Origin: a virus
Taxonomy: Duplodnaviria > Heunggongvirae > Uroviricota > Caudoviricetes
DNA length: 25,188 bases
Virus record (IMG/VR): IMGVR_UViG_2547132281_000006
Span: 1-25,188 of that record
Direction: 5' to 3' (one strand)
The notes under the pieces are model-generated. The model made no database searches. It saw only the letters and a program-made list of their open reading frames with translations, and was not told where the DNA came from. Numbering within the stretch: position 1 is the first letter of the stretch; each line of letters opens with the position of its first letter. Both the position numbers and the translations under genes were made by a program. Of the stretch, positions 1-25,188 are shown piece after piece.

Positions 1-267
1 TTACTCTGCAGGTGAAGTCGGCCACTCAATATCAGGTGCAGTTGATGTATCAACACGATTCAACAATACCCGATATTTATTCCATGCCTCCAGCAACGAT
101 CTTTCTTCCTCCGTTGCGATTTCCAGATCTACAGCATCCTGCAGTGGCGCAATATACTCACTGAATTCCTGGATGTAGAACTGTGTGGTGACGGTCTTCC
201 AGCCATTCGGCTCCTGCTGTATCGAAGCATACCAGGCTATTTCAATATCGCTATGCTGCGGCAGCAT
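1..267 (-). pseudogene. Tail-fibre assembly (Tfa) C-terminal remnant
   Basis: 88-aa ORF; last ~50 aa ([17 protein letters not shown]...[14 protein letters not shown]) closely match the C-terminus of the intact tfa at 1047-1631; first ~35 aa unrelated. DNA 19-163 is ~85% identical to 1061-1205. Confidence 0.6.
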
Positions 268-323
268 TTAACCCCTTGTAATTCATCGCCATAATTGATT
301 TAATTCACAAATAAAACTATAAC

Positions 324-992
324 ATGGTGAAATCAATGAAAAAAAACACAGATGATGGGGCTAAAATTTACACACCACTTACCCTAAAGCTTTATGACTG
401 GTGGGTTTTGGGAGTATCAAATCGGCTTGCATGGGGATGTCCTACAAAGGAACACCTTCTTCCACACTTTCTGGAACATGTAGGTAACAACCATCTGGAT
501 ATTGGTGTTGGAACTGGGTTTTACCTTACTCACGTACCTGAGAGTAGTCTGATATCTTTAATGGATTTGAACGAAGCTAGCCTGAACGCGGCATCTACAA
601 GGGCTGGGGAATCAAAAATTAAACATAAAATTAGCCATGATGTTTTTGAACCTTATCCCGCGGCGTTACATGGTCAATTTGATTCCATTTCCATGTTTTA
701 CCTTCTTCACTGCCTGCCTGGAAATATATCTACAAAAAGCTGTGTAATACGCAATGCGGCGCAGGCCTTAACTGACGATGGAACTCTATACGGAGCCACA
801 ATTCTTGGCGATGGAGTTGTGCACAATAGCTTCGGTCAAAAACTGATGCGCATTTACAATCAGAAAGGCATCTTTTCAAACACAAAAGATTCCGAAGAAG
901 GCTTAACACATATACTCTCAGAGCATTTCGAGAATGTTAAAACCAAGGTTCAAGGTACTGTAGTAATGTTTTCCGCTTCAGGGAAAAAATAG
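324..992 (+). CDS. Class I SAM-dependent methyltransferase (YbcY-like), plus-strand moron between tfa copies
   Basis: 222-aa ORF with glycine-rich SAM-binding motif LDIGVGTGFY near residue 58; alternative start ATG at 336 preceded by GGTGA. Strand opposite to the late operon. Confidence 0.7.
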   Translation: MVKSMKKNTDDGAKIYTPLTLKLYDWWVLGVSNRLAWGCPTKEHLLPHFLEHVGNNHLDIGVGTGFYLTHVPESSLISLMDLNEASLNAASTRAGESKIKHKISHDVFEPYPAALHGQFDSISMFYLLHCLPGNISTKSCVIRNAAQALTDDGTLYGATILGDGVVHNSFGQKLMRIYNQKGIFSNTKDSEEGLTHILSEHFENVKTKVQGTVVMFSASGKK

Positions 993-999
993 CATCCAA

Positions 1000-1032
1000 C
1001 CGCAGCACGTTCTTGCTTAAGACGTGCTGCGG
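1000..1032. terminator. Stable stem-loop between convergent MTase and tfa genes (candidate bidirectional terminator)
   Basis: Perfect 11-bp stem CCGCAGCACGT / ACGTGCTGCGG with 11-nt loop; T-run follows on the minus strand (complement of GGGAAAAAATAG). Confidence 0.4.
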
Positions 1033-1046
1033 CATAATCCCAATGA

Positions 1047-1631
1047 TTACTCCCTGACAGGGTTCGTAGGCCACTCAATATCAGGTGCAGTTGATGTATC
1101 AACACGGTTCAGCAACACCCGATACTTTTTCCAGGCTTCCAGCAATGAGGTTTCTTCCTCCGTTGCAATTTCCAGATCTGCAGCATCCTGAAGCGGCGCA
1201 ATATGCTCACTGGCTACCTGCATCAGGTTGTTTTTTGTTTCTTCCGCCTCCCGGATCCGGAACAGTTTTTCTGCTTCTGCATCTTTCACCCAGGTTGTGC
1301 CGTTCCACTTCTGAAACTCCCCTTCCGGCGATAACCAGGTAACATTTTCCGGTAATAAGCCGAGTTCAGAAATAAATAACGCGTCGCCGGAAGCTACGTC
1401 ATAAACCGTTTTACCCCGATGATCTTCAACGAGATGCCACGATGCCTCATCACTGTTGAAAACAGCCACAAAGCCAGCCGGAATATCTGGCGGTGCAATA
1501 TCGGTACTGTTTGCTGGCAGACCTGTATGAGGCGGAATATATGCGTCACCTTCACCAATAAATTCATTAGTTCCGGCCAGCAGATTATAAATTTTTATGG
1601 TCCGTGCTTGTTCACTCATTCTGAATGCCAT
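1047..1631 (-). CDS. tfa: Tail fibre assembly protein (lambda Tfa family)
   Basis: 194-aa ORF with typical Tfa N-terminus ([36 protein letters not shown]) and conserved C-terminal block. Confidence 0.85.
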
Positions 1632-1641
1632 TATGCAAGCC

Positions 1642-1881
1642 TCACAATATAGTTAAATGCGATGTTTTTGACGGTGTTTTCCGCGTTACCAGCAGCGTTA
1701 ACGGTGATGGTGTGTCCATGTGAACCAATCGCACCGGCGTTTTTCCGGTAATTTTGTCCAGCATCACCTCTTCGGTGTGGAAATTCACCGTACGGCGGAA
1801 AAACAGCTCCAGAAACAGCGCACGGAATTTAACTTTTTGTTCGGTATAACCGAGTAACTGGCGGGTCGTAAACAATCCCAT
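1642..1881 (-). pseudogene. Major capsid protein (lambda E-like), N-terminal ~55 codons only; deletion junction
   Basis: [41 protein letters not shown] resembles the recalled lambda E N-terminus; similarity stops after ~55 aa and the ORF ends 11 bp before tfa. Confidence 0.7.
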
Positions 1882-1938
1882 AAATCAGTTCCTTTCATTA
1901 AGAAATCAGTCAGGCCAACGCGGTGGCCTGATAACGTG

Positions 1939-2286
1939 TTACGGCAGCGCCGCGTGACTCAGGGCACTGCCGGTAAAGGCGTTGGCCTTTTTGTGTTCAT
2001 CCACACTTTCAGGCCAGCGGATTGCCTCCGTCGCAAAGGTCCCCGACTTGTAATAGGTCAGCACCGCCTCTGTGCCTTCAAGCGGCAGTACCAGTATGCC
2101 AACCGCACTACCGGCTTTCTGTCCGTCCCAGACCACCAGTTTCCCGGTGGCCCCATCCAGCATCAGGGGTGTCAGTGCCGGTGTTGCCGAGGAAATCCCG
2201 CTGCTGCCTGTGGCGGTGTGAGCCGGATCATTACCGGCAAAAATACGTACTTCCGCACGCTGTTCAGTGATGGTTTTCGTCACCAT
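1939..2286 (-). CDS. D: Head decoration protein (lambda D-like)
   Basis: 115 aa; NDPAHTATG...TPLMLD...KLVVWDG...AVGIL...YKSGTF matches recalled lambda gpD motifs; sits between protease C and the capsid-gene remnant. Confidence 0.85.
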   Translation of the reverse strand: MVTKTITEQRAEVRIFAGNDPAHTATGSSGISSATPALTPLMLDGATGKLVVWDGQKAGSAVGILVLPLEGTEAVLTYYKSGTFATEAIRWPESVDEHKKANAFTGSALSHAALP

Positions 2287-2322
2287 ATTGTTAAAACCTC
2301 GTATTGATGTTCAGCACTGACT

Positions 2323-3828
2323 TCATGGCATGGCCATGAGCATTTTCACGTCCGCATCACCGTCTTCTGACGCCTGTGACACGCCCCCCTGGACCGCAGC
2401 CGGTGAATGGTTCGCCATGAAATGTTCAAACAGGGCGGTTGTGGATGCAGAGACCGGTTCTGCCTTACCTGATCCCGCAGCCAGCACAGCCCGGGCGCTC
2501 TCCACGGTCATTCCCGGGCAGGCAGCCAGCTGTTCAGCCTGCGCCTCAGCCCCTTTTGCCTCATCCAGGGCCATGATCTGATCACGGAGTGATGGTCCGG
2601 CATTCGCCTGCGGTGAAGCAGCCAGGATCGGGCGGGCTTTTTCCACCGTCATCTCCGGCATCGCCGCCAGCGTTACTGCCAGTTGTTCACGACCGTTCGC
2701 TTCTTCACACGCCATAATGCGATCGGCTTCACTCTGCGCGGATGCCACCGGCTGCTGCGGTGCCGCCGCGGCCAGAATCGCCCGGGCCTGTTCAACGCTC
2801 ATGCCCTGTTGCCCTGCCAGCATCGTGGCAAGCTGTTCACGTCCTTTCGCTTCCTGGCATGTCAGGATCCCCATCACTCGCTGGTTCTCCTGCACGGCGG
2901 CTTCCGTTGCAGTTAATTGCGGCATAGTGCCTCCTCTGACATTACTGTTCAGCGCCGTGGCCATCACACTGATGGCATCCGACGCATTGATTAATTCATC
3001 CGCCAGCCCGGCCTCAATGCCGGACTGACCTTCAAAAACGGCGGCCTCTGTTCCCGTGACCGCATCCACAGACAACCCGGTATACATCGCCACTTTTTCG
3101 GCAAACATCCGGTGCGCCGCATCAATCCGCTGCTGCATATCCTGGCGAACCTCTGCCGGCAACGCTTCAAACTGATTGCCATCCACCTTGTGCGCCCCGG
3201 CATAAATCAGCGTGATATCCACACCGGCCTGCGCCAGATGACCGGCATAGCTGACATGGCTCATCATCACGCCAATGGAGCCGATACGGGATGTCTGGGT
3301 AACCAGCCGTCGGGAGCAGGCCGACGCCAGCAGCATGGCTGCAGAACAGGCCGTGTCATTGCACAGTGCCCAGACCGGCTTCTGCTGACGGAGGCGGTAA
3401 ATCATGTCAGCGCAGTCAAACGCGCCGGCGGCCTGCCCGCCCGGACTGTCAATGTCCAGCAGTATGCCCCGCACCTGGCTATCTGCCATTGCCTGCTGAA
3501 GACAGGCGACAATGCCGTCATAGCCAGTCATTCCGGAAAATGGCCGCATCCCCCCCAGCCGGTGCACCAGCGTGCCGCTCACCGGCAGTACCGCAATACC
3601 GTTCACCACCCGGTAAACACGGGCCGGTCGTTTACCTCCGGCCATGTACTCGTCCGTTTCAGCCAGCATTCCGGGAGCATCAAGCTGTACCTGCTGTTGT
3701 GGTACCGAAAGACTTGCTGCCCCCATCTCGCGCCCGAGCGCGCAAAAGAAAACCCGCGCATAGGCGGGCTCCAGAAGCAGCGGTTCATTGAATGCTGCGG
3801 CAATAATGTGTGAAAGATTACGTCTCAC
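2323..3828 (-). CDS. C: Prohead protease / scaffold (lambda C/Nu3-like, S49 peptidase family) with tandem C-terminal repeats
   Basis: 501 aa; N-terminal S49/ClpP-like region (ILLDIDSPGG...); C-terminal part has three ~33-aa tandem repeats (EAKGREQLA...GMSVEQARAILAA). Confidence 0.85.
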   Translation of the reverse strand: MRRNLSHIIAAAFNEPLLLEPAYARVFFCALGREMGAASLSVPQQQVQLDAPGMLAETDEYMAGGKRPARVYRVVNGIAVLPVSGTLVHRLGGMRPFSGMTGYDGIVACLQQAMADSQVRGILLDIDSPGGQAAGAFDCADMIYRLRQQKPVWALCNDTACSAAMLLASACSRRLVTQTSRIGSIGVMMSHVSYAGHLAQAGVDITLIYAGAHKVDGNQFEALPAEVRQDMQQRIDAAHRMFAEKVAMYTGLSVDAVTGTEAAVFEGQSGIEAGLADELINASDAISVMATALNSNVRGGTMPQLTATEAAVQENQRVMGILTCQEAKGREQLATMLAGQQGMSVEQARAILAAAAPQQPVASAQSEADRIMACEEANGREQLAVTLAAMPEMTVEKARPILAASPQANAGPSLRDQIMALDEAKGAEAQAEQLAACPGMTVESARAVLAAGSGKAEPVSASTTALFEHFMANHSPAAVQGGVSQASEDGDADVKMLMAMP

Positions 3829-5410
3829 GTGGTGTTGTCTCCTCTTCCGGCCTGCGACTCTCCGCTATCTGCTGCTGATACGCCTGCGCTATCCACACCG
3901 GACGTGAGAGTCCGGCTTTTTCCCGCTCTGCAGATTCCCTGACCTGCTGGCGGAAAATGTCCTGATAATCCTCGCCCATCAGCGCCAGCTCTTTCTCATA
4001 CGTGCTCAGTCCGGCCTCAATGCGCATCACTGATTCCTGAACCTCCTTGAGCCCGTCAATGGCCATTCTTCCGGCTCCAATCCACTCAGCCCGTGACCAG
4101 GCTGATCGCGCCTGATAAAAATCAAAACGTGCCCGTGGCGGACGAATAATCCCCCGAAGAAGTGCCTCTTCCAGCCAGCAGGAAAACATCTGCGTGGCCA
4201 GCCGGGACGCAATAAATTTTCGCCGCCCCATAAAATAGCGCCACGACTCATTGGCGGAGGCGCGGGCACTTGAATAACTGACCTTCGAGTAATCACGGGA
4301 CAACTGTTCGTAGGAAACGCCAAGACCGGCGGCGATATACCGCAGCAGCGCCTGTTCAAGCGCCGAAAATCCATTGTCTGAATCCTGCGCGGTCTGAAGT
4401 TTCAGATCATCACCGGGGAAAAGGTGCGGAATTTTGACACCGCCCAGCGTCACGTGATTCGTGTCATACCAGGTGGAGAACTTATCCAGAATATTAATAA
4501 GCGGATTATCCTTCTGCCCCTGCGGCGCACCGGCGATATATTCAAAGGCCTTTTCGGTATCAAGTTCACTTTCAATCGTCGCTGCATACATCGCCTTCAC
4601 TATGGCCGACTGAAGCTGTGTTGCCTGCAGGGAATCGAGCATCTTCAGCCGTTCCATGACGCTGTAAAACTGATTAGCCCCACGGGTCTGCCCGTCCTCC
4701 ACCGGCTCGAAAATATGCAGCATGGCCGGACGCCCGGTGGGAAGTTCACGCGGGATCCGTTCCCATCGTCCACTACCAGAGAACGGAAAATCGTCCTCAC
4801 AGATATGGTACGCGACGGCACGGCCATATCGATCGACCTCCACACCGGCCCGCAGAAAACGGTTCCCCATACCGTGTCCAGGCGTGTCCACCCGTTTCGG
4901 ACTCACGGCTTTAAAACGCGTACGGAATAACTGCGTGGTTTCCGTATCCCAGACCGGCTGCACAAAGATTTCGCCGTTAAACGCATGAACGCCCACACCT
5001 TCACGGATAAATTCCGTGAACGTGCGTTTTACTTCCACGTCGATCTCACCAAACATCCCTTCGGCGTATTCCGACCAGGCCGCCTCCACCTCATCGACAA
5101 AGCTTTTTGCTGCGGTCTCCCGCATCCCCAGCCAGCGCCAGTTCGGACGGTAGCTGATCAGAAACATATGCCCGACAATGTGATCCTTATGCAGAGCCAC
5201 CGCATTAGCCGCTATTCCGTTATTGCGCACCAGATCATCTGCCCGGGCATTCCCCAGACGCAACGCGGGTAGCAGGGCCGCATCGGCACTCTGCGCCGGT
5301 GGCAACCACTCCGCCATTTGCCCGCCAAATCCTGCGCCGCCCCCGTTGTAGCTGAGACTCTCACGAAGCGGAACGCCGTTCACATCAATCAGGACAGGCG
5401 TTCGTTTCAT
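3818..5410 (-). CDS. B: Portal protein (lambda B-like)
   Basis: 530 aa; co-linear with recalled lambda gpB (YNGGGAGFGGQ, GNARADDLVRNNG, FEPVEDGQTRGAN, LRYIAAGLGVSYEQLSR). Confidence 0.9.
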   Translation of the reverse strand: MKRTPVLIDVNGVPLRESLSYNGGGAGFGGQMAEWLPPAQSADAALLPALRLGNARADDLVRNNGIAANAVALHKDHIVGHMFLISYRPNWRWLGMRETAAKSFVDEVEAAWSEYAEGMFGEIDVEVKRTFTEFIREGVGVHAFNGEIFVQPVWDTETTQLFRTRFKAVSPKRVDTPGHGMGNRFLRAGVEVDRYGRAVAYHICEDDFPFSGSGRWERIPRELPTGRPAMLHIFEPVEDGQTRGANQFYSVMERLKMLDSLQATQLQSAIVKAMYAATIESELDTEKAFEYIAGAPQGQKDNPLINILDKFSTWYDTNHVTLGGVKIPHLFPGDDLKLQTAQDSDNGFSALEQALLRYIAAGLGVSYEQLSRDYSKVSYSSARASANESWRYFMGRRKFIASRLATQMFSCWLEEALLRGIIRPPRARFDFYQARSAWSRAEWIGAGRMAIDGLKEVQESVMRIEAGLSTYEKELALMGEDYQDIFRQQVRESAEREKAGLSRPVWIAQAYQQQIAESRRPEEETTPRET

Positions 5411-5613
5411 AACCTCACTCCCAGCGGACGACGGCGACGTCGGGTTGTCCCCAGTACCGACTCCGCATCATTGATCGCCCGGTTAAGCTCATCCAGAGAA
5501 GCCGCCGTATATTCAATTCTGCGACCATCTTTCTGGACAGACACCACCCGTTTACCGGTTAATAAATCAAGGCGCGCCTGACGCAGCGCCTGTAGTTCAG
5601 CGACTGTAACCAT
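5407..5613 (-). CDS. W: Head-tail joining protein W (lambda gpW-like)
   Basis: 68 aa, same length as lambda W; LTGKRVVSVQKDGRRIEYTAASL matches the recalled lambda block; overlaps the portal start by 4 nt. Confidence 0.85.
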   Translation of the reverse strand: MVTVAELQALRQARLDLLTGKRVVSVQKDGRRIEYTAASLDELNRAINDAESVLGTTRRRRRPLGVRL

Positions 5614-7525
5614 TCACTCCTCCGGACAGCTTCGCTGCCAGTTCTTTAAGGGTTGGCCGGGTCGTCTCTTCTTCCCGGGATTTTGCCAGTACAGCCAGAT
5701 CAAGCTGCCAGCGTTGCACGGACACACGTAATGCCGCATAGGCATACACCAGGCAGTCCAGCGCTTCGTTACGCCGCTTTTTGTTATCCCACAGCAGACG
5801 CATCTTTCCTTTTTCCCACTTCTCCACAAGCTCTTCCGCGACCAGTTGCTGCGCCTCTGTCTGCGAAAAAATCTCCGGATCATCAGGAAAACGGATGGCA
5901 TACGACGTGGCTTCATCCGCAGGCGTGGGATCGGCTTTCATACGGGCATAGAGAATTTCTTTTGCGGTGTCCGTCCCCACTTCACACAGATACACGCCCC
6001 GCTGATTGCGGGTTTTCGGCATGGTGATCACCGGCTTGCCATAGACAGATGCGCCTTTTACCGGCAGCACCCGGAAAACACCGTGTTTTTTTGACCTCTG
6101 ATAGACAATTTCACCATCGATCCCCCCGGTGTCCCAGCAGACACGGGAAATGGTCATTTCGGTTCCGTCTGCATGGCAGTATTTTTTGTTGATCGCCGCA
6201 TCCACACGTAACAGCGTCTCTTCCTCATCGGGACGGCCCATAATGATGATTTTATCCACCAGAAAAGCTTCCTCTCCCGGTGCCCATCCCCAGACATACA
6301 TCTCAAAACGGTTTCGCTGCGAGTCAATGCCCGCCGTCAGATAAACCACCCGGGCTGGCACCGCCGCCGTGTAATGCACGACCTTATCCATCAGTACCTG
6401 GTGATCGAGTTTTTCGCCCACGGCCTCTTCCCAGGTCTCGCCCAGCGTGGTGTTCACAAAGGTTTTCAGGCCGTTGGGATCTTTCAGTGCATCCAGCCAG
6501 TCATAGACTATCTGTACCCAGGTGGTGAACGGACTGTACGCCGTCCAGATATGGAACGTGATGGAGCGCGGCGGCGGAATTTCATTATCCGCGGCGCTGA
6601 AAAACGTCAGACCGTCACGGGTCCACATCCCCGTGTTTTCACAGATCCACCGCCCGTTGCTCTGGTCAAGCTCAGACTGATGGATCACGCAGCCATGATG
6701 TTCACAGAGGTAGAAAACGCTTTCGGGGCTGTCCTTCTCCCATTTAAGGCCAAAAGGCGTGGATTCATCGCCAAATTTCAGATACTGCTCCTCCCCACAG
6801 TGTGGGCAGGGCACATAAAAACGCATGAAATGCGCCGACTCGTTGGCCGCTTTTTCGATCTGGCAGGTGCCTTTGATTTTAGGCGTCGAGCCGCGAATGG
6901 ATTTGGGCCATACAGAGCCCTCAATACGTTTATCCCCAAGCAGGGTTGGCGAACCCTCTTTTTCGACATCCGGTTCGAACGAGGAAAGTTCGTCATAGCA
7001 GACCACGTCCACGGATTTTTCACGGTAGTTTTTAGCGGCAGCCCCGCCCAGGCACCAGAAGCCCACGCCCGATGAAAAACGTTTCAGCGTGAGGGTATTA
7101 TCACGATGTTTACGCCCAAACCACGGTGCAAGATCGAGTAAAACCGGCACATCCCTGATCGTGGGTTCCACATGAGATTTCATAAAATCTTCAGCAGCAG
7201 AATCCGTGGGCTGGAAAAGAAGGCTGTTGCGTGATTTATGCTCAATAAAATAAGCCTCCACTCCCAGCAACATCTTTGTATAACCAACACGGGCAGATTT
7301 AATCAGATTAACAGTGCGGATCCGGTCATTCCCCATGCTGTTCATGATGGCAACCTGAAACGGCAGTGTTTCCCACCGCCCCGGGGTGTAAGATGACTCT
7401 TTCGGAAGGTAATAATGTCGATCTGCCCACTGAACTGTCGTCAGAGGGACAGGAATTTTTAGCGCAAGGAGGCCGGTTGCTATCGCTCCTGCAGAATTAG
7501 CCGCCCTCAGTTCGTCTGAAATCAT
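5597..7525 (-). CDS. A: Terminase large subunit (lambda A-like)
   Basis: Start chosen at ATG 7525 so that 42 residues precede YYLPK as in lambda A; the longest ORF extends to 7567. Strong similarity throughout. Confidence 0.9.
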
Positions 7526-8045
7526 CAATCCACCTGCGCACATTCTCACCGGCTTCAGAAGCCACATCGGATGCTTTCGCGATTTCAGTTTTCACAGCAT
7601 CAAGATGTACGGGTGATATATCAGGGTATTTACGCTGCAGTGTCTGAGGGACACGGACAAGGATCCCTGATATATTCTGTGCCACTCGCTGAAAGATGTA
7701 GGTAAATAACTCCGTCTCGAGGACAAGGCCTTCCTCACGAGCATTTTTCAGCTCCTGTGCATCGGCCTGTGCCTTCGTCAGTCGGTAACGTTCGTAATCA
7801 ATGGTGCCGGGCTGAAGGTCTGATTCGCTGGCAGCCCTCAAATCCTCGATCTCTTTACGGAGTTTTTCGTTTTCAATATCAGCTTCCCTCTGCGCATACC
7901 ACTGAATGGCAGCAGTTGTATCAAAAACTGATTCAGTCCCTTTCCCTCCACCAGAAACTAGTGGTAACCCCTGACTCTGCCAGGCGGTGATGGTCCTGAC
8001 ATCAACGCCAAAAATATCGGCCAGTTTTTTCTTATTGACGTTCAT
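7497..8045 (-). CDS. Nu1: Terminase small subunit (lambda Nu1-like)
   Basis: 182 aa; [36 protein letters not shown] closely matches the recalled lambda Nu1 N-terminus; lies directly downstream of cos. Confidence 0.9.
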
Positions 8046-8059
8046 ACACTCCCCCGGGA

Positions 8060-8240: not shown

Positions 8241-8432
8241 TCGCCGGAAAGGACCCACGAAATGATAATGATTATCATCTATATAAGGTTTATCACAACA
8301 TGTGTGTACGCCATCAAACCACGAGAAATAATCAATTATGACGCAGGTATCGTATTAATTGATCTGCGTCAAATTAACGTAAAAGCAACTTCAGATAATA
8401 CAAATCAGCAACACTGAATATGGGGAAACATT

Positions 8433-9241: not shown

Positions 9242-9700
9242 TTATTTCAGGCACTGAGTGCGGATATAGTCCTGTGCCCCTTCCAGTTGCTTGTGCATCG
9301 TCATCAGCCGCTCTCTGAGGGTGAAATAATCCCGTGTAACGGTGTCTGCCAGTTGGGGGCCGGTTGCATTATCCACGCCGGAGGTGGTGGGGGCTTCATG
9401 CACGGAGCCTGGACAGGTGGCGTTGATCCGCAGGCGCTTACGACCAGCGGCAACATCAGCGCGCAGAGTTTCATTTTCAGCTCTCGCATCGGATAATTCC
9501 CTCGAGTATTTTGCATCGAGCGCAGCAACATCGCGCTGGCGCACCTGCATATCAGTAATGGTTGCGTTCGCCAGCTTCAGTTCACTGGCTTTGTTATCGC
9601 GCTGCGCTTTGTAGGTAATCGCGTTATCACGGTAATGGTCTGTTGCCATCCACAGCGCACCACAGGCCACCAGCAGAATAACGATAAACGCGGAAAGCAT
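9242..9700 (-). CDS. Rz: Rz i-spanin
   Basis: Start at internal ATG 9700 (the longest ORF extends to 9865). [14 protein letters not shown]...[10 protein letters not shown]...DYFTLRERL...KQLEG closely matches recalled lambda Rz. Confidence 0.9.
9304..9489 (-). CDS. Rz1: Rz1 o-spanin lipoprotein, embedded in Rz in another frame
   Basis: [20 protein letters not shown] lipoprotein signal with lipobox, then [30 protein letters not shown] matching recalled lambda Rz1. Confidence 0.85.
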
Positions 9701-10012
9701 TCGGTTTATGTTCACCCCAGCAGCCCCGACGAAGACAACATCACCCAGGCGAAGGACAGAAAAAGAGCAACCAGCATTAGTGAAAATGAAATACCGACAA
9801 TCACACACAGGACCTTTGCCGGCGTTATGAGTTTGTCTGACATAGCTACCCCTTAATTGCCACAATTAACTGGGATACTACCCATAAAAAAGGGATGCTC
9901 CAGACCAGCAAAAATTTCCAGTTTGGTAATTGACTAATCATGAGTCGCAACTCCCTAATCAGTTTGCTAAAATCAATCAAGGCAGCCTCCCATAGCTTAC
10001 TGCCATAAAAAC

Positions 10013-10045
10013 AAAACCCCGCTTGCTGCCAACAAACGGGGTTTT
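10013..10045. terminator. Hairpin with flanking A/T runs between lysozyme and Rz (candidate bidirectional terminator)
   Basis: AAAACCCCG - 15-nt loop - CGGGGTTTT, followed by T-rich sequence on both strands. Confidence 0.4.
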
Positions 10046-10135
10046 TACTTTTATTCACTTACATTTTGCCAGTTCGCAGGATTTCGTGTTATCCATCCGC
10101 CTTGGCCAACGTCATTTATTAGCAAAATATTCTGC

Positions 10136-10669
10136 TTATCTGTCGATTCCCCAGCACGCCAGCGCGCTCTCCTGGTCACGACGGGATACCTGACCGTAAC
10201 AGTTATTTGAGCGAATACGGCAGTCCCTGCCACCGTCCTTAATCCACCAGCGAATCGCCTCACACGCTCCCCTGCGATCACCTGCATTAATTCGTTTATA
10301 AAACGTCGACGGAAAACACTTACCGGGGCCAATGTTGTACGGACAGAATGACGCGATCCCCGCTTTCTGGGGTTCACTCAATGGCACTCTGATGTTTTTC
10401 TCCACCCATGCCAGCGCCTTATCACGCTCAATGGCGTTAACCCGGTCGCATTTTTCCTTCGACAACTTCATGCCCGGAACGACAGGTTTGCCATCCACCA
10501 GGATGGCACCGCGGCAGATGGTCCAGATACCCGCGCCATCACGGTATGCCGTGGTGTGGTTACCTTCCTTTTCATCCAGAAACTGGTCGAGAATGTCAGG
10601 CGCAGGCGCACCAGCGGCAATCAGCGCCAGAACGGCAGCCGACAGGCCGTATCTGATTTTTGTGTTCAT
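10136..10669 (-). CDS. Phage lysozyme R (GH24 endolysin, probably SAR-type)
   Basis: 177 aa; Gly/Ala-rich hydrophobic N-terminus (YGLSAAVLALIAAGAPA), then EKEGNHTTAYRDGAGIWTICRG consistent with a GH24 catalytic region. Confidence 0.85.
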   Translation of the reverse strand: MNTKIRYGLSAAVLALIAAGAPAPDILDQFLDEKEGNHTTAYRDGAGIWTICRGAILVDGKPVVPGMKLSKEKCDRVNAIERDKALAWVEKNIRVPLSEPQKAGIASFCPYNIGPGKCFPSTFYKRINAGDRRGACEAIRWWIKDGGRDCRIRSNNCYGQVSRRDQESALACWGIDR

Positions 10670-10774
10670 GGATATTTATCAGGATTTATCGGTTTCTGAG
10701 CCCTGGATATGTTTATCAGTTCCAGCCTGTTGCCTCAGGCTGCTAACAGGTCAATACAATCATGAGGATTATTT

Positions 10775-11047
10775 ATGGACAATAACACCATTTCTCTACA
10801 GGAGTTGCTCGACAGCATTTCCAGGCTTCGGGAAGACGTGAATACCCTTACCGTCGCCTTCTCATATCTGGCATTCTCAATTCCAAGGGAACAGATGCAA
10901 TCAACGCTGGCATCAATCCAGTTTGAATCATGCAATCCCAAATGGTCTCAGGAACAACAAGACTCTTTCAGGCGGCTTGCTGTATTACTGGATGAAAAAT
11001 ATGCTGGTGAAATTACCATTTCGGCGGACTCTTCAGAGAACCCGTAA
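10775..11047 (+). CDS. Hypothetical 90-aa protein, antisense insert inside the lysis cassette
   Basis: GAGGA SD 9 nt upstream; helical-looking protein; no minus-strand coding alternative in this 343-bp gap; rare AGG codons. Confidence 0.45.
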   Translation: MDNNTISLQELLDSISRLREDVNTLTVAFSYLAFSIPREQMQSTLASIQFESCNPKWSQEQQDSFRRLAVLLDEKYAGEITISADSSENP

Positions 11048-11357
11048 TTATTCCCGGTAGTTTTCCTCTGTAGGTTATCAACACATCCTGCGCCTCTAAA
11101 ATTACGGGGCGCTTTTCCGGCGACTGCTCATCCCCTTCACATAACCCGGCAGCAACATCCAGGAAGACCTGTCTGATGCTCCTTCTGGCTGCTGCCTCAT
11201 AAAACTCCAGCGCGGCACCTTCAACACGGTCCAGCGAGATGTCCAGGTCAAAAATTTCACCGTCAAAGCGTTTTTTGTCCCGTAACGCTAAAGTTACCGT
11301 AACTTTATTCTCAAAATTGCGGATCCCTTTCACAATCAGTTTATAGTTTTGAGTCAT
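11013..11357 (-). CDS. YdfR-like protein located between holin and endolysin
   Basis: 114 aa; start 4 nt after the holin stop; same position as ydfR in Qin as recalled; C-terminal ~11 aa overlap the plus-strand ORF. Confidence 0.55.
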   Translation of the reverse strand: MTQNYKLIVKGIRNFENKVTVTLALRDKKRFDGEIFDLDISLDRVEGAALEFYEAAARRSIRQVFLDVAAGLCEGDEQSPEKRPVILEAQDVLITYRGKLPGIITGSLKSPPKW

Positions 11358-11361
11358 TGAA

Positions 11362-11577
11362 TTACTCTCCCCGTGCAGCCTTACGACGGTCCTCTCTGAT
11401 TTTGAAATACAGGTTAGTCAGATATGTCAGCAGCCCAAACAGCAGACTCCCCAGCACGCCTATTGCCGCCCACTGAGACGGGGAAACCCTGTCCAGCAAC
11501 TGCAGGAACCAGTAGCCCGTTCCCACCGCTGACGTGGTGTATGACACACCTGTTGTGATTTTTTCCATCTGGTACAT
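11362..11577 (-). CDS. Holin, phage 21 S-like (pinholin class), dual-start motif MYQM
   Basis: From M27 of the longest ORF: [51 protein letters not shown] is near-identical to recalled S21; two in-frame starts 3 codons apart (11577 and 11568). Confidence 0.85.
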
Positions 11578-14180: not shown

Positions 14181-14214
14181 GGAGTTTACTCACATCTGAC
14201 AAAATCAATATAAA

Positions 14215-14548: not shown

Positions 14549-14561
14549 ATGATGCAGATAA

Positions 14562-16394: not shown

Positions 16395-17216
16395 CTATCG
16401 CGTTACCCTCTTTAACTGCCGCTCCGCCCATGCCTCTTCAATGTCAAACCGAACCACCAACGTATCGTAAAAGCGTTTCACTGATTTTTTCCACGTATCA
16501 AGCGTGATAGCACTCGTCACTTTGCATATGGCATTAAATGCCTCCGTTGATGGCAGCCTTTCACAGCCACGACCACCACAACGCTGGCAGTCTCTGATAA
16601 CAGGCATACCACGTTTTACCGACTCTTCACGATGAATGGCGACACCACGCCCACGGCAATCCTTACAGGCGGTGGAAACCTCACCCTTTCCGCCACACTC
16701 CGGACAGGCAACTTTTACCACCTCCCTGACTTTTTTCCATTCTTCCCAGTAAGACGAATACACACCTTTCGTACACTTTGCCCATACCGGCGGCTTACCA
16801 TCCGGATACTGGACCTTGTTTGTAAAAACCTCGCTTTCAATAAATTTTTTTCCGTGACAGCAGGGGCACTGTTTTTTGCTCGCCGCGCTACGGGCATAAT
16901 CTTCAAACGCATACGAAGCCATAATACGCATCACTGCCGGTTTTATTTCTGCCGGGAGTTTTCTTAACGCCGCCACGCGATCACACCGACTGAGTGCATA
17001 TTCTGTCAGCAATTCTGTTGCCCGCTCTCTGTCATTCATACTAATGCCCATTTTACCAAGGAACGCAGAAAACCCCATCTCAGCCCGATTCTGTGTCATG
17101 CCCTGCGCGGCCATCACATCAGTGATACTCAGCGCATCTTTCGACGTTGAGGCCGATGCATCAGTCAGGCCGGGGGATTTTGGGGAGTAGTATTTCGGTA
17201 AATCTTCCAGTTTCAT
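16395..17216 (-). CDS. Q: Late-gene antiterminator Q (lambda-type, enlarged zinc-binding region)
   Basis: 273 aa; N-terminus (YYSPKSP...TDVMAAQGM), middle (ASYAFEDYARSAA) and C-terminus (RFYDTLVV...KRVTR) parallel recalled lambda Q; four CxxC motifs; start overlaps the rusA stop (ATGA). Confidence 0.8.
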   Translation of the reverse strand: MKLEDLPKYYSPKSPGLTDASASTSKDALSITDVMAAQGMTQNRAEMGFSAFLGKMGISMNDRERATELLTEYALSRCDRVAALRKLPAEIKPAVMRIMASYAFEDYARSAASKKQCPCCHGKKFIESEVFTNKVQYPDGKPPVWAKCTKGVYSSYWEEWKKVREVVKVACPECGGKGEVSTACKDCRGRGVAIHREESVKRGMPVIRDCQRCGGRGCERLPSTEAFNAICKVTSAITLDTWKKSVKRFYDTLVVRFDIEEAWAERQLKRVTR

Positions 17217-17587
17217 TTTTTGACCTGCCCTTCAAGCATTATGGGGTAAATCTTCACCCCCAGACGTCCACCAGATACTGGCTGACCACGAACGATATTG
17301 ATTTCATCAAACTGCTCATCGTCCATTAACACTCCCGCATGCGTCAGCGCATCCAGCGGTGCTTTCAGGATATTGTCCAGGTCGCGACGACGCTTATCCG
17401 GTGGCTCTGCAATCACCTTTATCGCCAGCCTTCCGGACAGGCTTAATTTCAGCCGCTGCTGGCGAACAATAAGCGCCACTGCCCGGCGATAACGCTCCCC
17501 GGCTTTTGATACAAAATATGTGCTGCCACGGCGTCGCCAGTAAGTGTTCACCGTCGGCGGGTAAGGTAAAACCAAATCTATGAGCAT
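17213..17587 (-). CDS. rusA: Holliday junction resolvase RusA
   Basis: 124 aa; LPYPPTVNTYW N-terminus and DKRRRDLDNILKAPLDALTHAGVLMDDEQF catalytic block typical of RusA. Confidence 0.85.
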   Translation of the reverse strand: MLIDLVLPYPPTVNTYWRRRGSTYFVSKAGERYRRAVALIVRQQRLKLSLSGRLAIKVIAEPPDKRRRDLDNILKAPLDALTHAGVLMDDEQFDEINIVRGQPVSGGRLGVKIYPIMLEGQVKK

Positions 17588-17831
17588 CAGTCACCTCTTT
17601 TAACAGAGCCTGCATTTTTTCAACAGCATCAGGGGTGTCTTTATCCAGCCAACGGAAAATTTTCTGGGTATTACGGGCCAGGGCTTCCGGATGGCTGTCG
17701 TCATACAGTTCCGGGAACGTCATTCCCAGCTCGAAATACGCTTTGGTAATTTTCGCAGCCGGTACTTTTTCGCCGTCCGGATGCGCCCAGGCATTCATTG
17801 CCATGCGGATGTGTTCATGCTTGATTTTCAT
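17394..17831 (-). CDS. Hypothetical protein downstream of the Cro-like gene (position analogous to ydaT of Rac); 3' end overlaps rusA
   Basis: 145-aa ORF; first ~100 aa look protein-like; last ~45 aa overlap rusA in another frame (possible lost stop or frameshift). Confidence 0.4.
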   Translation of the reverse strand: MKIKHEHIRMAMNAWAHPDGEKVPAAKITKAYFELGMTFPELYDDSHPEALARNTQKIFRWLDKDTPDAVEKMQALLKEVTDAHRFGFTLPADGEHLLATPWQHIFCIKSRGALSPGSGAYCSPAAAEIKPVRKAGDKGDCRATG

Positions 17832-18090
17832 GAATCACCCCCGCCTCTGGTTGTGTGTTAGCCTGATACTCGACAGGTAAGCCGTCGGTTGGGTTGGGAT
17901 AAGTACTGCCATCAATCTCGTGCGGAGTTACTATCCAGCCTGTTGCTTCGCACCAGCGTAAAATTTTTTTCCCCGTAAGTTTCGCCCGTCCGGTAATGAC
18001 ATGGCTTACCATCCCTTGGGTTACCCCAACAATTTCAGCAAAATGCTTCTGAGTTATACCGGAATGATGCAAATATTCTCCAAGATTCAT
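17815..18090 (-). CDS. Cro/YdaS/DicC-like HTH regulator, divergent from the repressor
   Basis: 91 aa; helix-turn-helix region GITQKHFAEIVGVTQGMVSHVITG; divergent from the repressor gene across an operator-containing intergenic region. Confidence 0.65.
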   Translation of the reverse strand: MNLGEYLHHSGITQKHFAEIVGVTQGMVSHVITGRAKLTGKKILRWCEATGWIVTPHEIDGSTYPNPTDGLPVEYQANTQPEAGVIHENQA

Positions 18091-18122
18091 TGTTCACCTC
18101 ATGTGATGTCATCACGATCATT

Positions 18123-18162
18123 AATAGCATTGTTATTTTTAAAAGTAAATAGCATCACTATT
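18123..18162. promoter_or_regulatory. Operator pair OR-like: two 15-bp palindromic sites (AATAG-N5-CTATT type), 25 bp apart
   Basis: AATAGCATTGTTATT (18123-18137) and AATAGCATCACTATT (18148-18162) in the divergent cro-like/repressor intergenic region; also palindrome TGATGTCATCA at 18104-18114. Confidence 0.5.
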
Positions 18163-18197
18163 TCAAAGAGATTAATAATCTTATTAGAATTGAAGGT

Positions 18198-18698
18198 ATG
18201 AAAAGAAAATCCCTGTCAGAGATCGACCTGCAAGCCGCCCAGAGACTGAAAGAAATCTGGACGGCGAAAAAAAATCAACTAGGGTTAACCCAAGAGCGTG
18301 CGGCAGAAATTCTGGGATTTTCGACACAGGGAGCTGTAAGCCATTATCTAAATGGTCAGACACCTTTAAATCTTGAGGCTGTTATCAAGTTCGCAGGGTT
18401 GCTGCAAGTTCCTCCCGAGTCAATCAGACCAGATATGGCCGAGTTGTTACAAATTGTAAGGATGTATCCCCAAGAATCTGGGGAGGACAATGTTGTCACT
18501 ATATCTGCAGATATGGAACAATCGGAAAACGAACTTCCGTTTAATATAGACCCCATGGAGCGGGATTTGCTCCAGACGTTCAGGGCTTTCCCCAAAGAAG
18601 ATAAAGAGAAAATGCTTAAGGAAATGAAGGAGAAAAAAGAATCAATTGAAGAAATCGTTGCGCGATGGCTAGCTGCGCAAAAGGGTCGTCGCGCCTAA
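18198..18698 (+). CDS. DicA-like prophage repressor (HTH, no LexA-type peptidase domain)
   Basis: 166 aa; HTH LGLTQERAAEILGFSTQGAVSHYLNG; C-terminal region resembles recalled DicA; no S24 peptidase motifs. Confidence 0.75.
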   Translation: MKRKSLSEIDLQAAQRLKEIWTAKKNQLGLTQERAAEILGFSTQGAVSHYLNGQTPLNLEAVIKFAGLLQVPPESIRPDMAELLQIVRMYPQESGEDNVVTISADMEQSENELPFNIDPMERDLLQTFRAFPKEDKEKMLKEMKEKKESIEEIVARWLAAQKGRRA

Positions 18699-18715
18699 TC
18701 TGAGGAGGTAAAAAC

Positions 18716-18907
18716 ATGAGTACAGCCCTTTCCCCGATAATTTCTGAATTTGAAACAGTCGAACAAGAAAACAGCTATAACGAATGGTTGCGAACCAAAG
18801 TGGCAGCAAGCCTCTCAGATCCCCGTCCTGCAATTCCACATGACGAAGTAATGGCTGAAATGGAAAACCTTATTGCTCAATTAGCTGCAACGAACAGGAG
18901 TGAGTAA
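18716..18907 (+). CDS. Type II antitoxin (ParD-like) paired with the downstream ParE/RelE toxin
   Basis: 63 aa; GAGGAGG SD; stop overlaps the toxin start (TAATG); acidic C-terminus. Confidence 0.65.
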   Translation: MSTALSPIISEFETVEQENSYNEWLRTKVAASLSDPRPAIPHDEVMAEMENLIAQLAATNRSE

Positions 18908-19197
18908 TGCTGCCCATTTTATGGCTACCTTCTGCACGTGATGATTTACGTCAGATCGTAGCCTATATTGCTAAGGAAAACCCTCCCGCTGCACGTAGAC
19001 TAAAAATACGCATTGAAACATCAGTTTTGTCACTTACTGAACACCCTTATCTGTACCCACCGAGCGAAAGAGTTCCAAGTCTTCGTGAGATAGTGACTCA
19101 TCCTAACTACATAATACTTTACCGAGTAACAGCATCTAACATCGAGATCGTAAATGTAGTTCACTCACGAAGACAGTATCCAAACAAAACCTGTTAA
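18907..19197 (+). CDS. ParE/RelE-family type II toxin
   Basis: 96 aa; LPSARDDL...YIILYRV...IEIVNVVHSRRQY pattern typical of ParE/RelE toxins. Confidence 0.8.
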   Translation: MLPILWLPSARDDLRQIVAYIAKENPPAARRLKIRIETSVLSLTEHPYLYPPSERVPSLREIVTHPNYIILYRVTASNIEIVNVVHSRRQYPNKTC

Positions 19198-23770: not shown

Positions 23771-23831
23771 TGTTCAACCGTCGCCAGTTGTCGTTGATAT
23801 TCTGCAACTGGCGCGTTCCGGAGTGATAGCC

Positions 23832-24101
23832 ATGAGCGAACAGTACCTGATAACGCTCGACGAGTGGAAACCAAAACGGTTCAGTCTCCCAATAACAAAC
23901 ACTACCCTGGTGAAATACGGAAAACTAGGATACATCGTTCCAAGACCACAAAAAATTCGTGGGCGTTGGCTGATAGATCGCCGAGCAGTATTTGTTGGGC
24001 CTGGTGAAACGGGAATTGCGCCGGAAATTCATACTGGCGATGATGATGCACTGAAGGAGATTTTAACTCATGTCACCGAGGCCACGAAAAAACAGCACTG
24101 A
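23832..24101 (+). CDS. xis: Excisionase (lambda Xis-like)
   Basis: 89 aa from ATG 23832 (GGAG SD); YLITLDEWKPKR...PRPQKIRGRWL resembles recalled lambda Xis; 3' end overlaps the int start by 32 nt. Confidence 0.7.
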   Translation: MSEQYLITLDEWKPKRFSLPITNTTLVKYGKLGYIVPRPQKIRGRWLIDRRAVFVGPGETGIAPEIHTGDDDALKEILTHVTEATKKQH

Positions 24102-25188
24102 CGTAGCCGGTCTTTACGAAAAGTTTGATCGCAGAACTGGCAGAGTTTACTACCAGTATAAAAATCCTGTGACTGGAAAATTTCACGGACTCGGAACAGA
24201 CAAAGGTAAGGCAGAAAAAATCGCTTCCACAGCCAATCAGCGAATAGCTGCAGCAGAAGCTGAATATTTCATGCGCAAAATTGATGAAAGTCCGTCAGCA
24301 ACAAAACGTCGGGGTATCAGATTAAAGGCATGGGTTGATCGATATCTGAAAATACAGGACACGCGACTGAAAAATGGAGATATTGCAGCTACAACTCACA
24401 AAGAAAAAACTCGAATGGCTGCATACCTGGTTTCCCGTCTGGGAAACCACCCATTGAAAGAACTGGAAGTAAGAGACTTTGCATTAATACTGGATGAGTG
24501 GCTGGATAAAGACATGGTCAGCACAGCGAGAGTAAATCGTGGATTATGGGTTGATATTTATAAAGAAGCACAGCATGCAGGGGAAGTTCCTCCTGGATGG
24601 AATCCTCCGGAGGCTACCCGTAAACCGATCCCTAAAGTAACCAGAGCCAGGCTCACCATGGAAGACTGGCAAAAAATTTACAATGCAACGCCTGAAAAAC
24701 ACTTTATCCGTAACGCAATGCTTCTTGCGATTGTTACTGGTCAGCGCCGTGATGACATTTGCCACATGCGTTTTTCAGATGTGTGGAACGAACACTTGCA
24801 TATCACCCAGGGAAAAACCGGAATGCGTCTGGCGTTACCGCTTACACTACGCTGTGATGCCATTGGGATAACGTTAAAAGAAGTTATTGATGGGTGCCGA
24901 GACAGAATATTAAGTCCATATCTAATCCATAGTCGGCACCAGAAACAACCGAAGCCGATGAGTAAAGACAACCTGAGCGACTACTTTGCCAAAGCACGGG
25001 ATCTGGCTGGGATAATTCCACCAGCAGGAAAAACTCCGCCAACATTTCATGAACAACGCTCTCTATCAGAACGGCTGTACCGTGCACAGGGTATCGATAC
25101 AAAAACATTACTAGGACATAAAGTCCAGGCAACCACCGATCGCTATAACGATACTCGAGGTCAGGAATGGGTTAAGCTGGTTATTTGA
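24070..25188 (+). CDS. int: Tyrosine integrase (lambda Int family)
   Basis: 372 aa; arm-binding N-terminus (GRVYYQYKNPVTGKFHGLG), catalytic-core blocks (LLAIVTGQRRDDIC, HEQRSLSERLY, LLGHK...TTDRY) co-linear with recalled lambda Int. Confidence 0.9.
   Translation: MSPRPRKNSTDVAGLYEKFDRRTGRVYYQYKNPVTGKFHGLGTDKGKAEKIASTANQRIAAAEAEYFMRKIDESPSATKRRGIRLKAWVDRYLKIQDTRLKNGDIAATTHKEKTRMAAYLVSRLGNHPLKELEVRDFALILDEWLDKDMVSTARVNRGLWVDIYKEAQHAGEVPPGWNPPEATRKPIPKVTRARLTMEDWQKIYNATPEKHFIRNAMLLAIVTGQRRDDICHMRFSDVWNEHLHITQGKTGMRLALPLTLRCDAIGITLKEVIDGCRDRILSPYLIHSRHQKQPKPMSKDNLSDYFAKARDLAGIIPPAGKTPPTFHEQRSLSERLYRAQGIDTKTLLGHKVQATTDRYNDTRGQEWVKLVI

What the first reader, a model, noticed from the sequence alone, without database searches (positions are those of the whole stretch)
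1632..1881. Capsid/tail module deleted: major capsid gene cut after ~55 codons and joined beside tfa
Seen: the packaging and head genes run in lambda order (Nu1, A, W, B, C, D), but the next ORF matches only the N-terminus of lambda E and is followed 11 bp later by tfa. Everything lambda encodes between E and the tail fibre (capsid, head-tail connectors, tail shaft, tape measure, tip genes) is absent, roughly 15-20 kb. Inference: the element cannot make its own virions, yet keeps an intact-looking cos, terminase, portal, protease, lysis and integration functions, so it might still be packaged or mobilised by a helper.
Basis: partly seen in the sequence, partly recalled or inferred. Interest (0 to 1): 0.5.

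Follow-up and report, generated by a model that had tools for sequence, protein, structure and literature searches.

The report
Cryptic prophage missing capsid and tail
A phage-21-like prophage in the diarrhoeal E. coli strain TW14425 has lost its capsid, tail and replication genes through two clean deletions; this is an ordinary, recent case of prophage decay, not a new kind of element.

Summary
The ORF at 1642-1881 (- strand) consists of the first 50 codons of a phage-21/lambda-type major capsid gene (E). These are fused seamlessly, at a 2-bp microhomology (1732-1733), to the last 103 nt of the side tail-fibre gene stf. The stf part is read out of frame, and tfa follows 10 nt later. About 16.7 kb is missing (E codon 51 through FI, FII, Z, U, V, G, T, H, M, L, K, I, J, lom and most of stf), and no trace of it lies elsewhere in the window. 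The window is essentially the whole prophage, which sits between potB and potC in ETEC strain TW14425. Two assemblies of that strain carry the junction, so it is not an artefact. No other searched genome has it.

It removes about 8 kb, including the replication region, and truncates the ydaT/cII-like gene.

The retained cos, Nu1, A, W, B, C and D differ at only 4 of 6,661 nt from an intact-looking prophage. Their intact appearance therefore reflects a young deletion, not selection.

Mobilisation by a helper has precedent for defective lambdoid prophages. Here it is untested, and it is handicapped by the missing replication genes and by the 25.6-kb size. Interest is low.

The parts
1642..1881 (-). 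Chimeric 79-codon ORF: E codons 1-50 followed by 29 out-of-frame codons from the 3' end of stf, with stop TGA at 1644-1642
   Evidence: (Phage_cap_E, 19.8 bits, profile positions 1-45). The exact protein is found only in E. coli TW14425.
1732..1881 (-). Retained 5' 150 nt (50 codons) of the phage-21-type major capsid gene E/gene 7
   Evidence: 100% nt identity to L003 20001-20150; 50/50 aa identity to phage 21 and THO-003 E.
1732..1733 (.). Deletion junction 1: 2-bp microhomology 'CA' shared by both parents (6 of 7 matches over CA[A/C]CGG); no inserted bases
   Evidence: Three-way alignment of the window with the E side (L003) and the stf side (L001, L002, L003).
1631..1733 (-). Remnant of the 3' end of the side tail-fibre gene stf (last 33 codons plus TAA, which overlaps the tfa ATG)
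   Evidence: 33/33 aa identical to the C-terminus of THO-003 stf.
1047..1631 (-). Full-length tail-fibre assembly gene tfa (194 aa)
   Evidence: Pfam Caudo_TAP 4.8e-44; 92.8% aa identity to THO-003 tfa.
1..992 (.). Left end of the prophage: C-terminal tfa fragment (1-267, -) and class I SAM methyltransferase moron (324-992, +); potB ends 231 bp beyond the window start
1939..8045 (-). Retained head and packaging genes: D 1939-2286, C/protease-scaffold 2323-3828, B portal 3818-5410, W 5407-5613, A 5597-7525, Nu1 7497-8045
   Evidence: Pfam; lengths and sequences equal those of the intact-looking THO-003 prophage; 95% nt identity to phage 21.
8215..8226 (-). cosN cohesive-end sequence GGGCGGCGACCT, with flanking cosQ/cosB in about 8046-8260
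   Evidence: region 8046-8300 is 255/255 identical to L003.
9242..11577 (-). Lysis cassette: Rz 9242-9715 with embedded Rz1, endolysin 10136-10669, ydfR 11013-11357, phage-21-type holin 11362-11577
   Evidence: Pfam; called genes in L006.
16395..17587 (-). Late antiterminator Q (16395-17216) and rusA (17213-17587)
   Evidence: Pfam.
17601..17602 (.). Deletion junction 2: 2-bp microhomology 'TA'; about 8.2 kb missing relative to the O104:H4 potC prophage (L005 24480-32721), including the DUF968 gene, hokD, ea22-like genes, the DUF977 gene, the HTH O-like replication gene and the 3' part of ydaT
17394..17831 (-). Chimeric ORF: N-terminal ~77 codons (17831-17601) of the ydaT/cII-like gene, running out of frame into the rusA region
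   Evidence: Pfam YdaT_toxin 48-80; PHROG cII-like 1-82; exact protein found only in TW14425.
17815..19197 (.). Immunity region: cro/ydaS-like HTH 17815-18090 (-), cI-like HTH repressor 18198-18698 (+), PaaA2/ParE toxin-antitoxin 18716-19197 (+)
23823..25188 (+). Excisionase (23823-24101) and lambda-type tyrosine integrase (24070-25188); potC starts 167 bp beyond the window end
   Evidence: Pfam.

Best explanation
The window is a complete, defective lambdoid prophage with a phage-21-type head module, integrated between potB and potC of ETEC strain TW14425. Two RecA-independent (illegitimate) deletions shaped it, each joined at a 2-bp microhomology.

Deletion 1 joined E codon 50 to the last 103 nt of stf and removed about 16.7 kb: the rest of E, FI, FII, Z, U, V, G, T, H, M, L, K, I, J, lom and most of stf. 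It left a functionless 79-codon fusion ORF directly upstream of tfa.

Deletion 2 joined codon ~77 of the ydaT/cII-like gene to a point 14 bp upstream of rusA and removed about 8 kb, including the replication region.

The element can therefore neither replicate nor build capsids or tails. The remaining cos, terminase, portal, protease, decoration, lysis, Q, int and xis genes look intact because the deletions are evolutionarily very recent.

Shown here: the anatomy, the two junctions, the absence of the structural and replication genes, the strain specificity and the near-identity to intact relatives. Inferred: the deletion mechanism, the neutrality of the retained genes and the loss of autonomous mobility.
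For: - E-side homology (100% to L003) starts at 1732. stf-side homology (L001, L002, L003) ends at 1733. There are no filler bases.
- E residues 1-50 and the last 33 residues of stf are the only remnants of the capsid-to-tail-fibre interval.
- Junction 2 is at 17601/17602 with a TA overlap.
- No replication, capsid or tail family appears in any ORF.
- The prophage is flanked by potB and potC on a 643-kb contig. Both fusion proteins are also recorded for a 4.94-Mb TW14425 contig from a second assembly.
- Junction 1 is absent from 5,426 complete E. coli genomes, the GTDB representatives, JGI metagenomes and IMG/VR. Junction 2 is absent from the 5,426 complete genomes.
- Window 1732-8392 differs at 4 of 6,661 nt from the intact-looking THO-003 prophage. 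Nu1, A, W, C and D proteins are identical to it.
- Other lineages carry different E-truncating deletions: strain 11A20CPO008 has E nt 774 joined to stf -126, and O157:H7 Rafaela_II has E nt 264 joined to V. This kind of decay is therefore recurrent.
Against: - No single intact sibling prophage matching all segments at >99% was found. The deleted lengths are therefore estimated from mosaic relatives.
- The stf endpoint of the independent deletion in strain 11A20CPO008 lies only 23 nt away. This could hint at a hotspot or a shared history.
- Nothing here tests expression or function, so selection on the retained genes cannot be excluded.
- The att sites lie outside the window and were not resolved.
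Confidence: 0.9

Rival explanations
1. The element is a functional helper-dependent mobile element (satellite-like). After induction it excises and uses its own terminase, cos, portal and protease, and is packaged into capsids and tails supplied by a co-resident or superinfecting phage-21-type phage.
For: - cos, Nu1, A, W, B, C, D, int and xis are intact.
- Phage-21-type D/E sequences occur in most E. coli genomes (4,549 of 5,426 match window 1300-2300), so potential helpers are common.
- In O157 Sakai, defective lambdoid prophages lacking head, tail or packaging functions are packaged and some are transferred through complementation by other prophages (PMC2669165).
Against: - There is no replication module, so no amplification and no concatemers, which lambda-type terminases need as two-cos substrates (established knowledge).
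- At 25.6 kb it is about half a lambdoid genome, below the cos packaging minimum (established knowledge).
- Junction 1 was found only in TW14425 and junction 2 in none of the 5,426 complete genomes, so there is no sign of spread.
- It has no satellite hallmarks such as AlpA, a primase or capsid-size redirection.
- The fusion ORF is an out-of-frame scar.
Confidence: 0.06
2. The junction is an assembly artefact: a mis-join of two prophage fragments in a draft genome.
For: E. coli genomes carry several near-identical lambdoid prophages, which often confound short-read assemblies. The junction is unique to this strain.
Against: - The junction lies inside a 643-kb contig with syntenic potB and potC flanks.
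- The same fusion proteins are annotated on a 4,943,650-bp contig from a separate TW14425 assembly.
- The join is between non-homologous sequences at a 2-bp overlap. Repeat-driven mis-assembly would instead join within a shared repeat.
Confidence: 0.02
3. The junction is not one large deletion from an intact phage. It is a secondary 643-bp deletion in an ancestor that already carried the 11A20CPO008-type junction (E nt 774 joined to stf -126) at the same potB/potC site.
For: The two stf endpoints are only 23 nt apart. Both prophages sit at potB and share the left arm at 98.85% identity.
Against: - The D/E' allele of 11A20CPO008 is only 95% identical to the window, whereas the THO-003 allele is 100% identical.
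- That prophage also has a separate portal/protease deletion that the window lacks.
- The search could only detect nearby junctions, because pieces are joined only when less than about 1 kb apart. This inflates the apparent coincidence.
Confidence: 0.07
4. The remnant has been domesticated. For example, the E' N-terminal peptide, or the retained portal, protease and terminase, might interfere with assembly of superinfecting phage-21-type phages; or the lysis cassette and Q might serve the host.
For: The retained genes have no inactivating mutations. Domestication of defective prophages is a documented phenomenon in enterobacteria (general knowledge).
Against: - Near-identity to intact phages (4 of 6,661 nt) leaves no time for selection to be visible.
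- The element is found in one strain only.
- The 29 C-terminal residues of E' are frame-shifted stf sequence with no family match.
Confidence: 0.03

Closest known systems
Escherichia phage 21 (OL657228.1 / M81255.1), lambdoid phage with lambda-homologous head genes 1-7
   Same: Same order and type of cos, Nu1(1), A(2), W(3), B(4), C/Nu3(5/6), D(shp) and E(7). Window 1732-7942 is 95% identical at the nt level. A, W, B, C and D are 95-98% identical at the aa level. E residues 1-50 are identical.
   Different: Phage 21 has the full 342-aa capsid gene and all connector and tail genes. The window has none. Nu1 is only 82% identical and the cosB/Nu1 N-terminal region diverges. The early regions are unrelated.
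Intact-looking potB/potC prophage of E. coli O104:H4 2009EL-2071 (NC_018661.1) and the prophage of strain THO-003 (AP022525.1)
   Same: The O104:H4 prophage has the same integration site, int, xis, exonuclease, dicB region, cI/ydaS/ydaT immunity region with the ParE toxin-antitoxin pair, Q, rusA and lysis genes (98-99% in the int and immunity regions). The THO-003 prophage has a head module and cos that are 99.94% identical.
   Different: Both relatives retain E through the tail genes, and THO-003 also retains stf. The O104:H4 prophage retains 8.2 kb between ydaT and rusA that the window lacks. No single relative matches every segment, because these prophages are mosaic.
Defective lambdoid prophage pool of E. 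coli O157:H7 Sakai (Sp4, Sp6, Sp7, Sp9 and others; Asadulghani et al. 2009, PMC2669165), and the K-12 cryptic prophages DLP12, Rac and Qin (own knowledge)
   Same: These are lambdoid prophages crippled by internal deletions in morphogenesis and/or replication genes while keeping int, lysis genes and cos/terminase fragments. The idea that such remnants can be rescued by co-resident prophages comes from this work. An O157:H7 genome sampled here has its own E' truncation (E nt 264 joined to V).
   Different: For the Sakai prophages, excision, packaging and transfer were measured. Nothing has been measured for this element. Its junctions differ from all of theirs.
Capsid-forming PICIs (cf-PICIs) and cos-type PICIs (phage satellites)
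   Same: They are integrated elements with int and cos or packaging genes that depend on a helper for part of the virion.
   Different: cf-PICIs encode their own major capsid protein and head-tail connectors and lack only tails. PICIs carry their own replication module and regulator and are about 10-19 kb. This element lacks the capsid gene and any replication module, is 25.6 kb, and is collinear with ordinary lambdoid prophages (family features from own knowledge and the abstracts listed).

Membership tests
Lambdoid prophage (phage 21 / lambda type) | Lambda gene order: int-xis ... repressor/cro ... Q - lysis - cos - Nu1-A-W-B-C-D-E | tested here: met
   Pfam annotation of all major ORFs; cosN; 95% nt identity to phage 21 head genes.
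Lambdoid prophage (phage 21 / lambda type) | Site-specific integration with host genes on both sides | tested here: met
   potB is 231 bp left of the window and potC is 167 bp right of int on contig AELE01000002.1. This is the same site as in the O104:H4 and NCCP 13717 prophages. The att core itself was not resolved.
Defective (cryptic) prophage | Loss of at least one function essential for virion production or replication | tested here: met
   E is truncated at codon 50. FI through J and stf are absent. The replication region is absent.
Capsid-forming PICI (cf-PICI) | Encodes its own complete major capsid protein and head-tail connector proteins | tested here: not met
   Only 50 of 342 capsid residues remain. 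There are no FI, FII, Z or U homologues.
PICI / phage satellite in general | Own replication module (primase/replicase plus ori) and satellite-type regulator (e.g. AlpA), size about 10-19 kb | tested here: not met
   No such Pfam or PHROG hits in any ORF. The element is 25.6 kb.
PICI / phage satellite in general | Induced and packaged by a helper phage | not testable with these tools
   This requires induction and transduction experiments.
Cosmid-like cos-packageable DNA | Functional cos site | tested here: met
   The cosN 12-mer matches the lambda cohesive-end sequence as I recall it. The cos region is 255/255 identical to an intact-looking prophage. This is a sequence-level test only.
Cosmid-like cos-packageable DNA | Two cos sites about 37-52 kb apart on one molecule (concatemer of suitable unit length) | tested here: not met
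   There is a single cos, a 25.6-kb unit and no replication genes to form concatemers. The size limits are from established lambda biology (own knowledge).

The most novel reading that the evidence does not exclude
The element may be an incipient capsid-less satellite. It would keep a matched phage-21-type cos/terminase/portal/protease set, and would be packaged (for example as a dimer of about 51 kb, or after recombination) into capsids and tails made by a co-resident phage-21-type phage. This would make it the mirror image of cf-PICIs, which bring the capsid and borrow only the tail.
Probability: 0.04. Interest if true: 0.45.

Novelty: new member of a known kind. Interest (0 to 1): 0.1.

Why it matters
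The finding matters little beyond annotation. It gives a cleanly mapped example of how lambdoid prophages decay, with two seamless deletions at 2-bp microhomologies. One removed the whole capsid-to-tail-fibre block and the other removed the replication block. It also shows that 'intact-looking' neighbouring genes can simply reflect a very recent deletion. Such remnants remain reservoirs of near-perfect head and packaging genes that incoming phage-21-type phages can recombine with (the 'defective prophage pool' idea). For automated prophage callers, it is a case where terminase, portal, protease, lysis genes and integrase are all present although the element is doubly dead.

Tried and rejected
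- **Exact junction-1 scans.** I scanned the GTDB species representatives, JGI metagenome contigs and IMG/VR for the exact junction-1 sequence. All returned zero, so there is no sign of spread. Strain identity came instead from an exact-protein look-up.
- **Intact sibling prophage.** I looked for one matching all segments at >99% to measure the deletions exactly. None exists in the 5,426 complete genomes, because relatives are mosaic. Sizes were therefore taken from THO-003 (deletion 1) and O104:H4 (deletion 2).
- **Nested-deletion scenario from the 11A20CPO008 junction.** I considered it and judged it less likely, because the D/E' alleles differ by 5%.
- **att core.** I searched for direct repeats between the potB-side and potC-side flanks. 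The best repeat was only a 12-nt match, which is inconclusive. The att sites lie outside the window.
- **Satellite, PICI or cf-PICI membership.** Rejected, because the capsid, connector and replication hallmarks are absent.
- **IS-mediated deletion.** Rejected, because there is no IS sequence or filler at either junction.
- **Promoter and terminator scan around the junction.** It showed nothing beyond chance that bears on the finding.
- **Literature search for TW14425.** It found no description of this prophage.

Full report
**What is in the window.** All major ORFs were annotated with Pfam and PHROGs. Apart from a few morons and the leftward early genes, the genes read on the - strand in lambdoid order.
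- Left end: a C-terminal tfa fragment (1-267), a class I SAM methyltransferase on the + strand (324-992), a full tfa (1047-1631) and the ORF in question (1642-1881).
- Head and packaging: D (1939-2286), the S49 protease/scaffold C (2323-3828), portal B (3818-5410), W (5407-5613), terminase A (5597-7525) and Nu1 (7497-8045).
- cosN, GGGCGGCGACCT, at 8215-8226.
- Lysis cassette: Rz/Rz1, endolysin, ydfR and a phage-21-type holin (9242-11577).
- A NanS-p-like esterase, an IraM/PmrD-like gene, three tRNAs and a DNA methyltransferase.
- Q (16395-17216) and rusA (17213-17587).
- A ydaT'/ydaS/cI-like immunity region with a PaaA2-ParE toxin-antitoxin pair.
- DicF and dicB, an 823-aa exonuclease, xis and int (24070-25188).

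The head module is of the phage 21 type. Window 1732-7942 is 95% identical to phage 21 at the nt level.

**Checking the observation.** The 79-codon ORF begins with 50 residues identical to residues 1-50 of the 342-residue major capsid protein of phage 21 and of an intact-looking prophage in strain THO-003. At the DNA level, window 1732-2400 is 100% identical to that prophage, and the match stops abruptly at 1732.

On the other side, window 1630-1736 matches the last ~107 nt of the side tail-fibre gene stf of three different prophages. That match stops at 1733.

The two homologies overlap by two bases (CA, 1732-1733; 6 of 7 over CA[A/C]CGG), and there is no inserted DNA. In its native frame the stf remnant encodes the authentic stf C-terminus, whose TAA overlaps the tfa ATG. 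The fusion ORF reads the remnant out of frame for 29 codons and stops 10 nt before tfa.

The corrections are 50 codons rather than about 55, a junction at 1732/1733 rather than 1700-1720, and a join to the 3' end of stf rather than directly beside tfa.

tblastn with phage 21 FI, FII, Z, U, V, G, H, M, L, K, I, J, stf and THO-003 T and lom finds nothing else in the window. Relative to THO-003 the missing stretch is 16.7 kb.

**Is it real, and where is it from?** An exact-protein look-up places the fusion ORF on contig AELE01000002.1 (643 kb) of assembly GCA_000166615.2. It is also recorded as WNT86161.1 (QMY53_00003) on a 4.94-Mb contig of E. coli TW14425. AELE00000000 is ETEC strain TW14425, isolated in Guinea-Bissau in 1996 (PMC4309559).

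Two assemblies of the strain therefore agree. The join is between unrelated sequences rather than within a repeat. An assembly artefact is very unlikely.

The contig shows potB 231 bp to the left of the window and potC 167 bp to the right of int. The window is therefore the whole prophage, and no capsid or tail module is hidden elsewhere in it.

Junction 1 was not found in 5,426 complete RefSeq E. coli genomes, the GTDB species representatives, JGI metagenomes or IMG/VR.

Alignment with the potC prophage of O104:H4 2009EL-2071 and with a prophage of strain H3 shows another clean junction at 17601/17602, with a 2-bp TA overlap. It joins codon ~77 of the ydaT/cII-like gene to a point 14 bp upstream of rusA.

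About 8.2 kb is missing relative to O104:H4. The missing stretch holds the DUF968 gene, hokD, ea22-like genes, the DUF977 gene and the HTH O-like replication gene. In strain H3 the equivalent stretch holds DnaT-like and P-like replication genes.

No ORF in the window hits any replication family. This junction is also absent from all 5,426 complete genomes. Its fusion protein is likewise recorded only for TW14425.

**Age and meaning of the 'intact' genes.** Window 1732-8392 differs from the THO-003 prophage at 4 of 6,661 positions. The cos region 8046-8300 is 255/255 identical. Nu1, A, W, C and D proteins are identical and B is 528/530 identical.

The retained packaging and head genes therefore look perfect because the deletion, or the acquisition of this module, is very recent. 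This gives no evidence that they are maintained by selection.

Different E-truncating deletions exist in other lineages. In strain 11A20CPO008, E nt 774 is joined to stf -126, also with a 2-bp overlap and also at potB. In O157:H7 Rafaela_II, E nt 264 is joined to V. Loss of the morphogenesis block is thus a recurrent mode of decay.

The 11A20CPO008 stf endpoint lies only 23 nt from the one here. Its D/E' allele is only 95% identical to the window, against 100% for THO-003. I therefore regard the events as independent, and I record the proximity as unexplained.

**Most likely mechanism.** Two RecA-independent illegitimate recombination events at 2-bp microhomologies deleted the capsid-to-tail-fibre block and the replication block of a phage-21-type lambdoid prophage at potB/potC. 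This mechanism is inferred. The anatomy is shown directly.

The consequences are also inferred:
- No capsid, connectors, tail or tail fibre can be made.
- No replication occurs after excision.
- The pR-proximal transcript now runs ydaS - ydaT' - rusA - Q.
- The E' fusion peptide is a scar.

**Could a helper mobilise it?** Precedent exists. In O157 Sakai, defective lambdoid prophages lacking head, tail or packaging functions were packaged, and some were transferred, through complementation by other prophages (PMC2669165). Here, however, three points weigh against it.
- The element cannot replicate.
- It carries a single cos.
- At 25.6 kb it is about half a lambdoid genome.

Lambda-type terminases need two cos sites spaced at roughly 75-105% of genome length (established knowledge, not tested here). 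Rescue of its genes by homologous recombination with an incoming phage-21-type phage is more plausible than transfer of the element as such.

It fails the defining features of cf-PICIs (own capsid and connectors) and of PICIs in general (own replication module and regulator, and a size of about 10-19 kb).

**Verdict.** This is an ordinary, strain-specific member of the well-known class of defective lambdoid prophages, and its interest is low.

Noticed in passing
window 17394-17831, junction at 17601/17602: A second clean deletion with a 2-bp TA microhomology fuses the N-terminal ~77 codons of the ydaT/cII-like gene to the region just upstream of rusA. It removes about 8 kb, including the replication genes, and is unique to TW14425.
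   Followed up: yes
window 1-1631: The prophage left end has a full tfa and a second C-terminal tfa fragment (same orientation, about 77% aa identity). They flank an opposite-strand class I SAM methyltransferase moron. At least 80% of this arm (1-1731) is covered in 1,494 of 5,426 E. coli genomes. In the four flanking regions inspected it lay at potB twice, with an unrelated head module in one, and beside other prophages twice.
   Followed up: partly
L002 (NZ_CM151390.1) 12332-13230; L001 (O157:H7 Rafaela_II) 14887-15150: Other lineages carry different E-truncating deletions: E nt 774 joined to stf -126, and E nt 264 joined to V. The first has its stf endpoint only 23 nt from the one in this window, at the same potB site. 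Whether this reflects a hotspot, shared history or coincidence is unresolved.
   Followed up: partly
window 1090-1288 (-): A full-length Rfam IS009 match (225.7 bits) lies entirely inside the tfa coding sequence.
   Followed up: no
window 14206-14721 (-): An STnc100 sRNA match (14206-14395) lies next to a three-tRNA cluster downstream of Q: Arg-TCT, Arg-TCG, and a CAT-anticodon tRNA that ARAGORN calls Met but RefSeq annotates as Ile in relatives.
   Followed up: no
window 20604-21203 (+): DicF antisense RNA (75.8 bits) is followed by dicB and a DUF1482 (ydfD-like) gene, giving a Qin-like cell-division-inhibition operon in the leftward early region.
   Followed up: no
window 18716-19197 (+): A PaaA2-type antitoxin and ParE toxin pair lies immediately downstream of the cI-like repressor gene. 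It is conserved in the O104:H4 potC prophage.
   Followed up: no
window 13845-14180 (+): A 111-aa ORF lies between the esterase and the tRNA cluster. It has no hit in the Pfam scan run here, but its product is recorded as PmrD-family in the source contig annotation and as anti-adapter IraM in a related prophage.
   Followed up: partly
window 7497-8260: Nu1 is only 82% identical to phage 21 gp1, whereas A, W, B, C and D are 95-98% identical. The cosB/Nu1 N-terminal DNA also falls out of the megablast match to phage 21. This suggests a different cosB/Nu1 specificity module on a phage-21-type head backbone.
   Followed up: partly
window ~9200-9680: There is a sharp mosaic boundary. Identity to the THO-003 prophage drops from 4 differences in 6.66 kb (1732-8392) to about 50 differences within the roughly 450 bp of the Rz/Rz1 region.
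   Followed up: no
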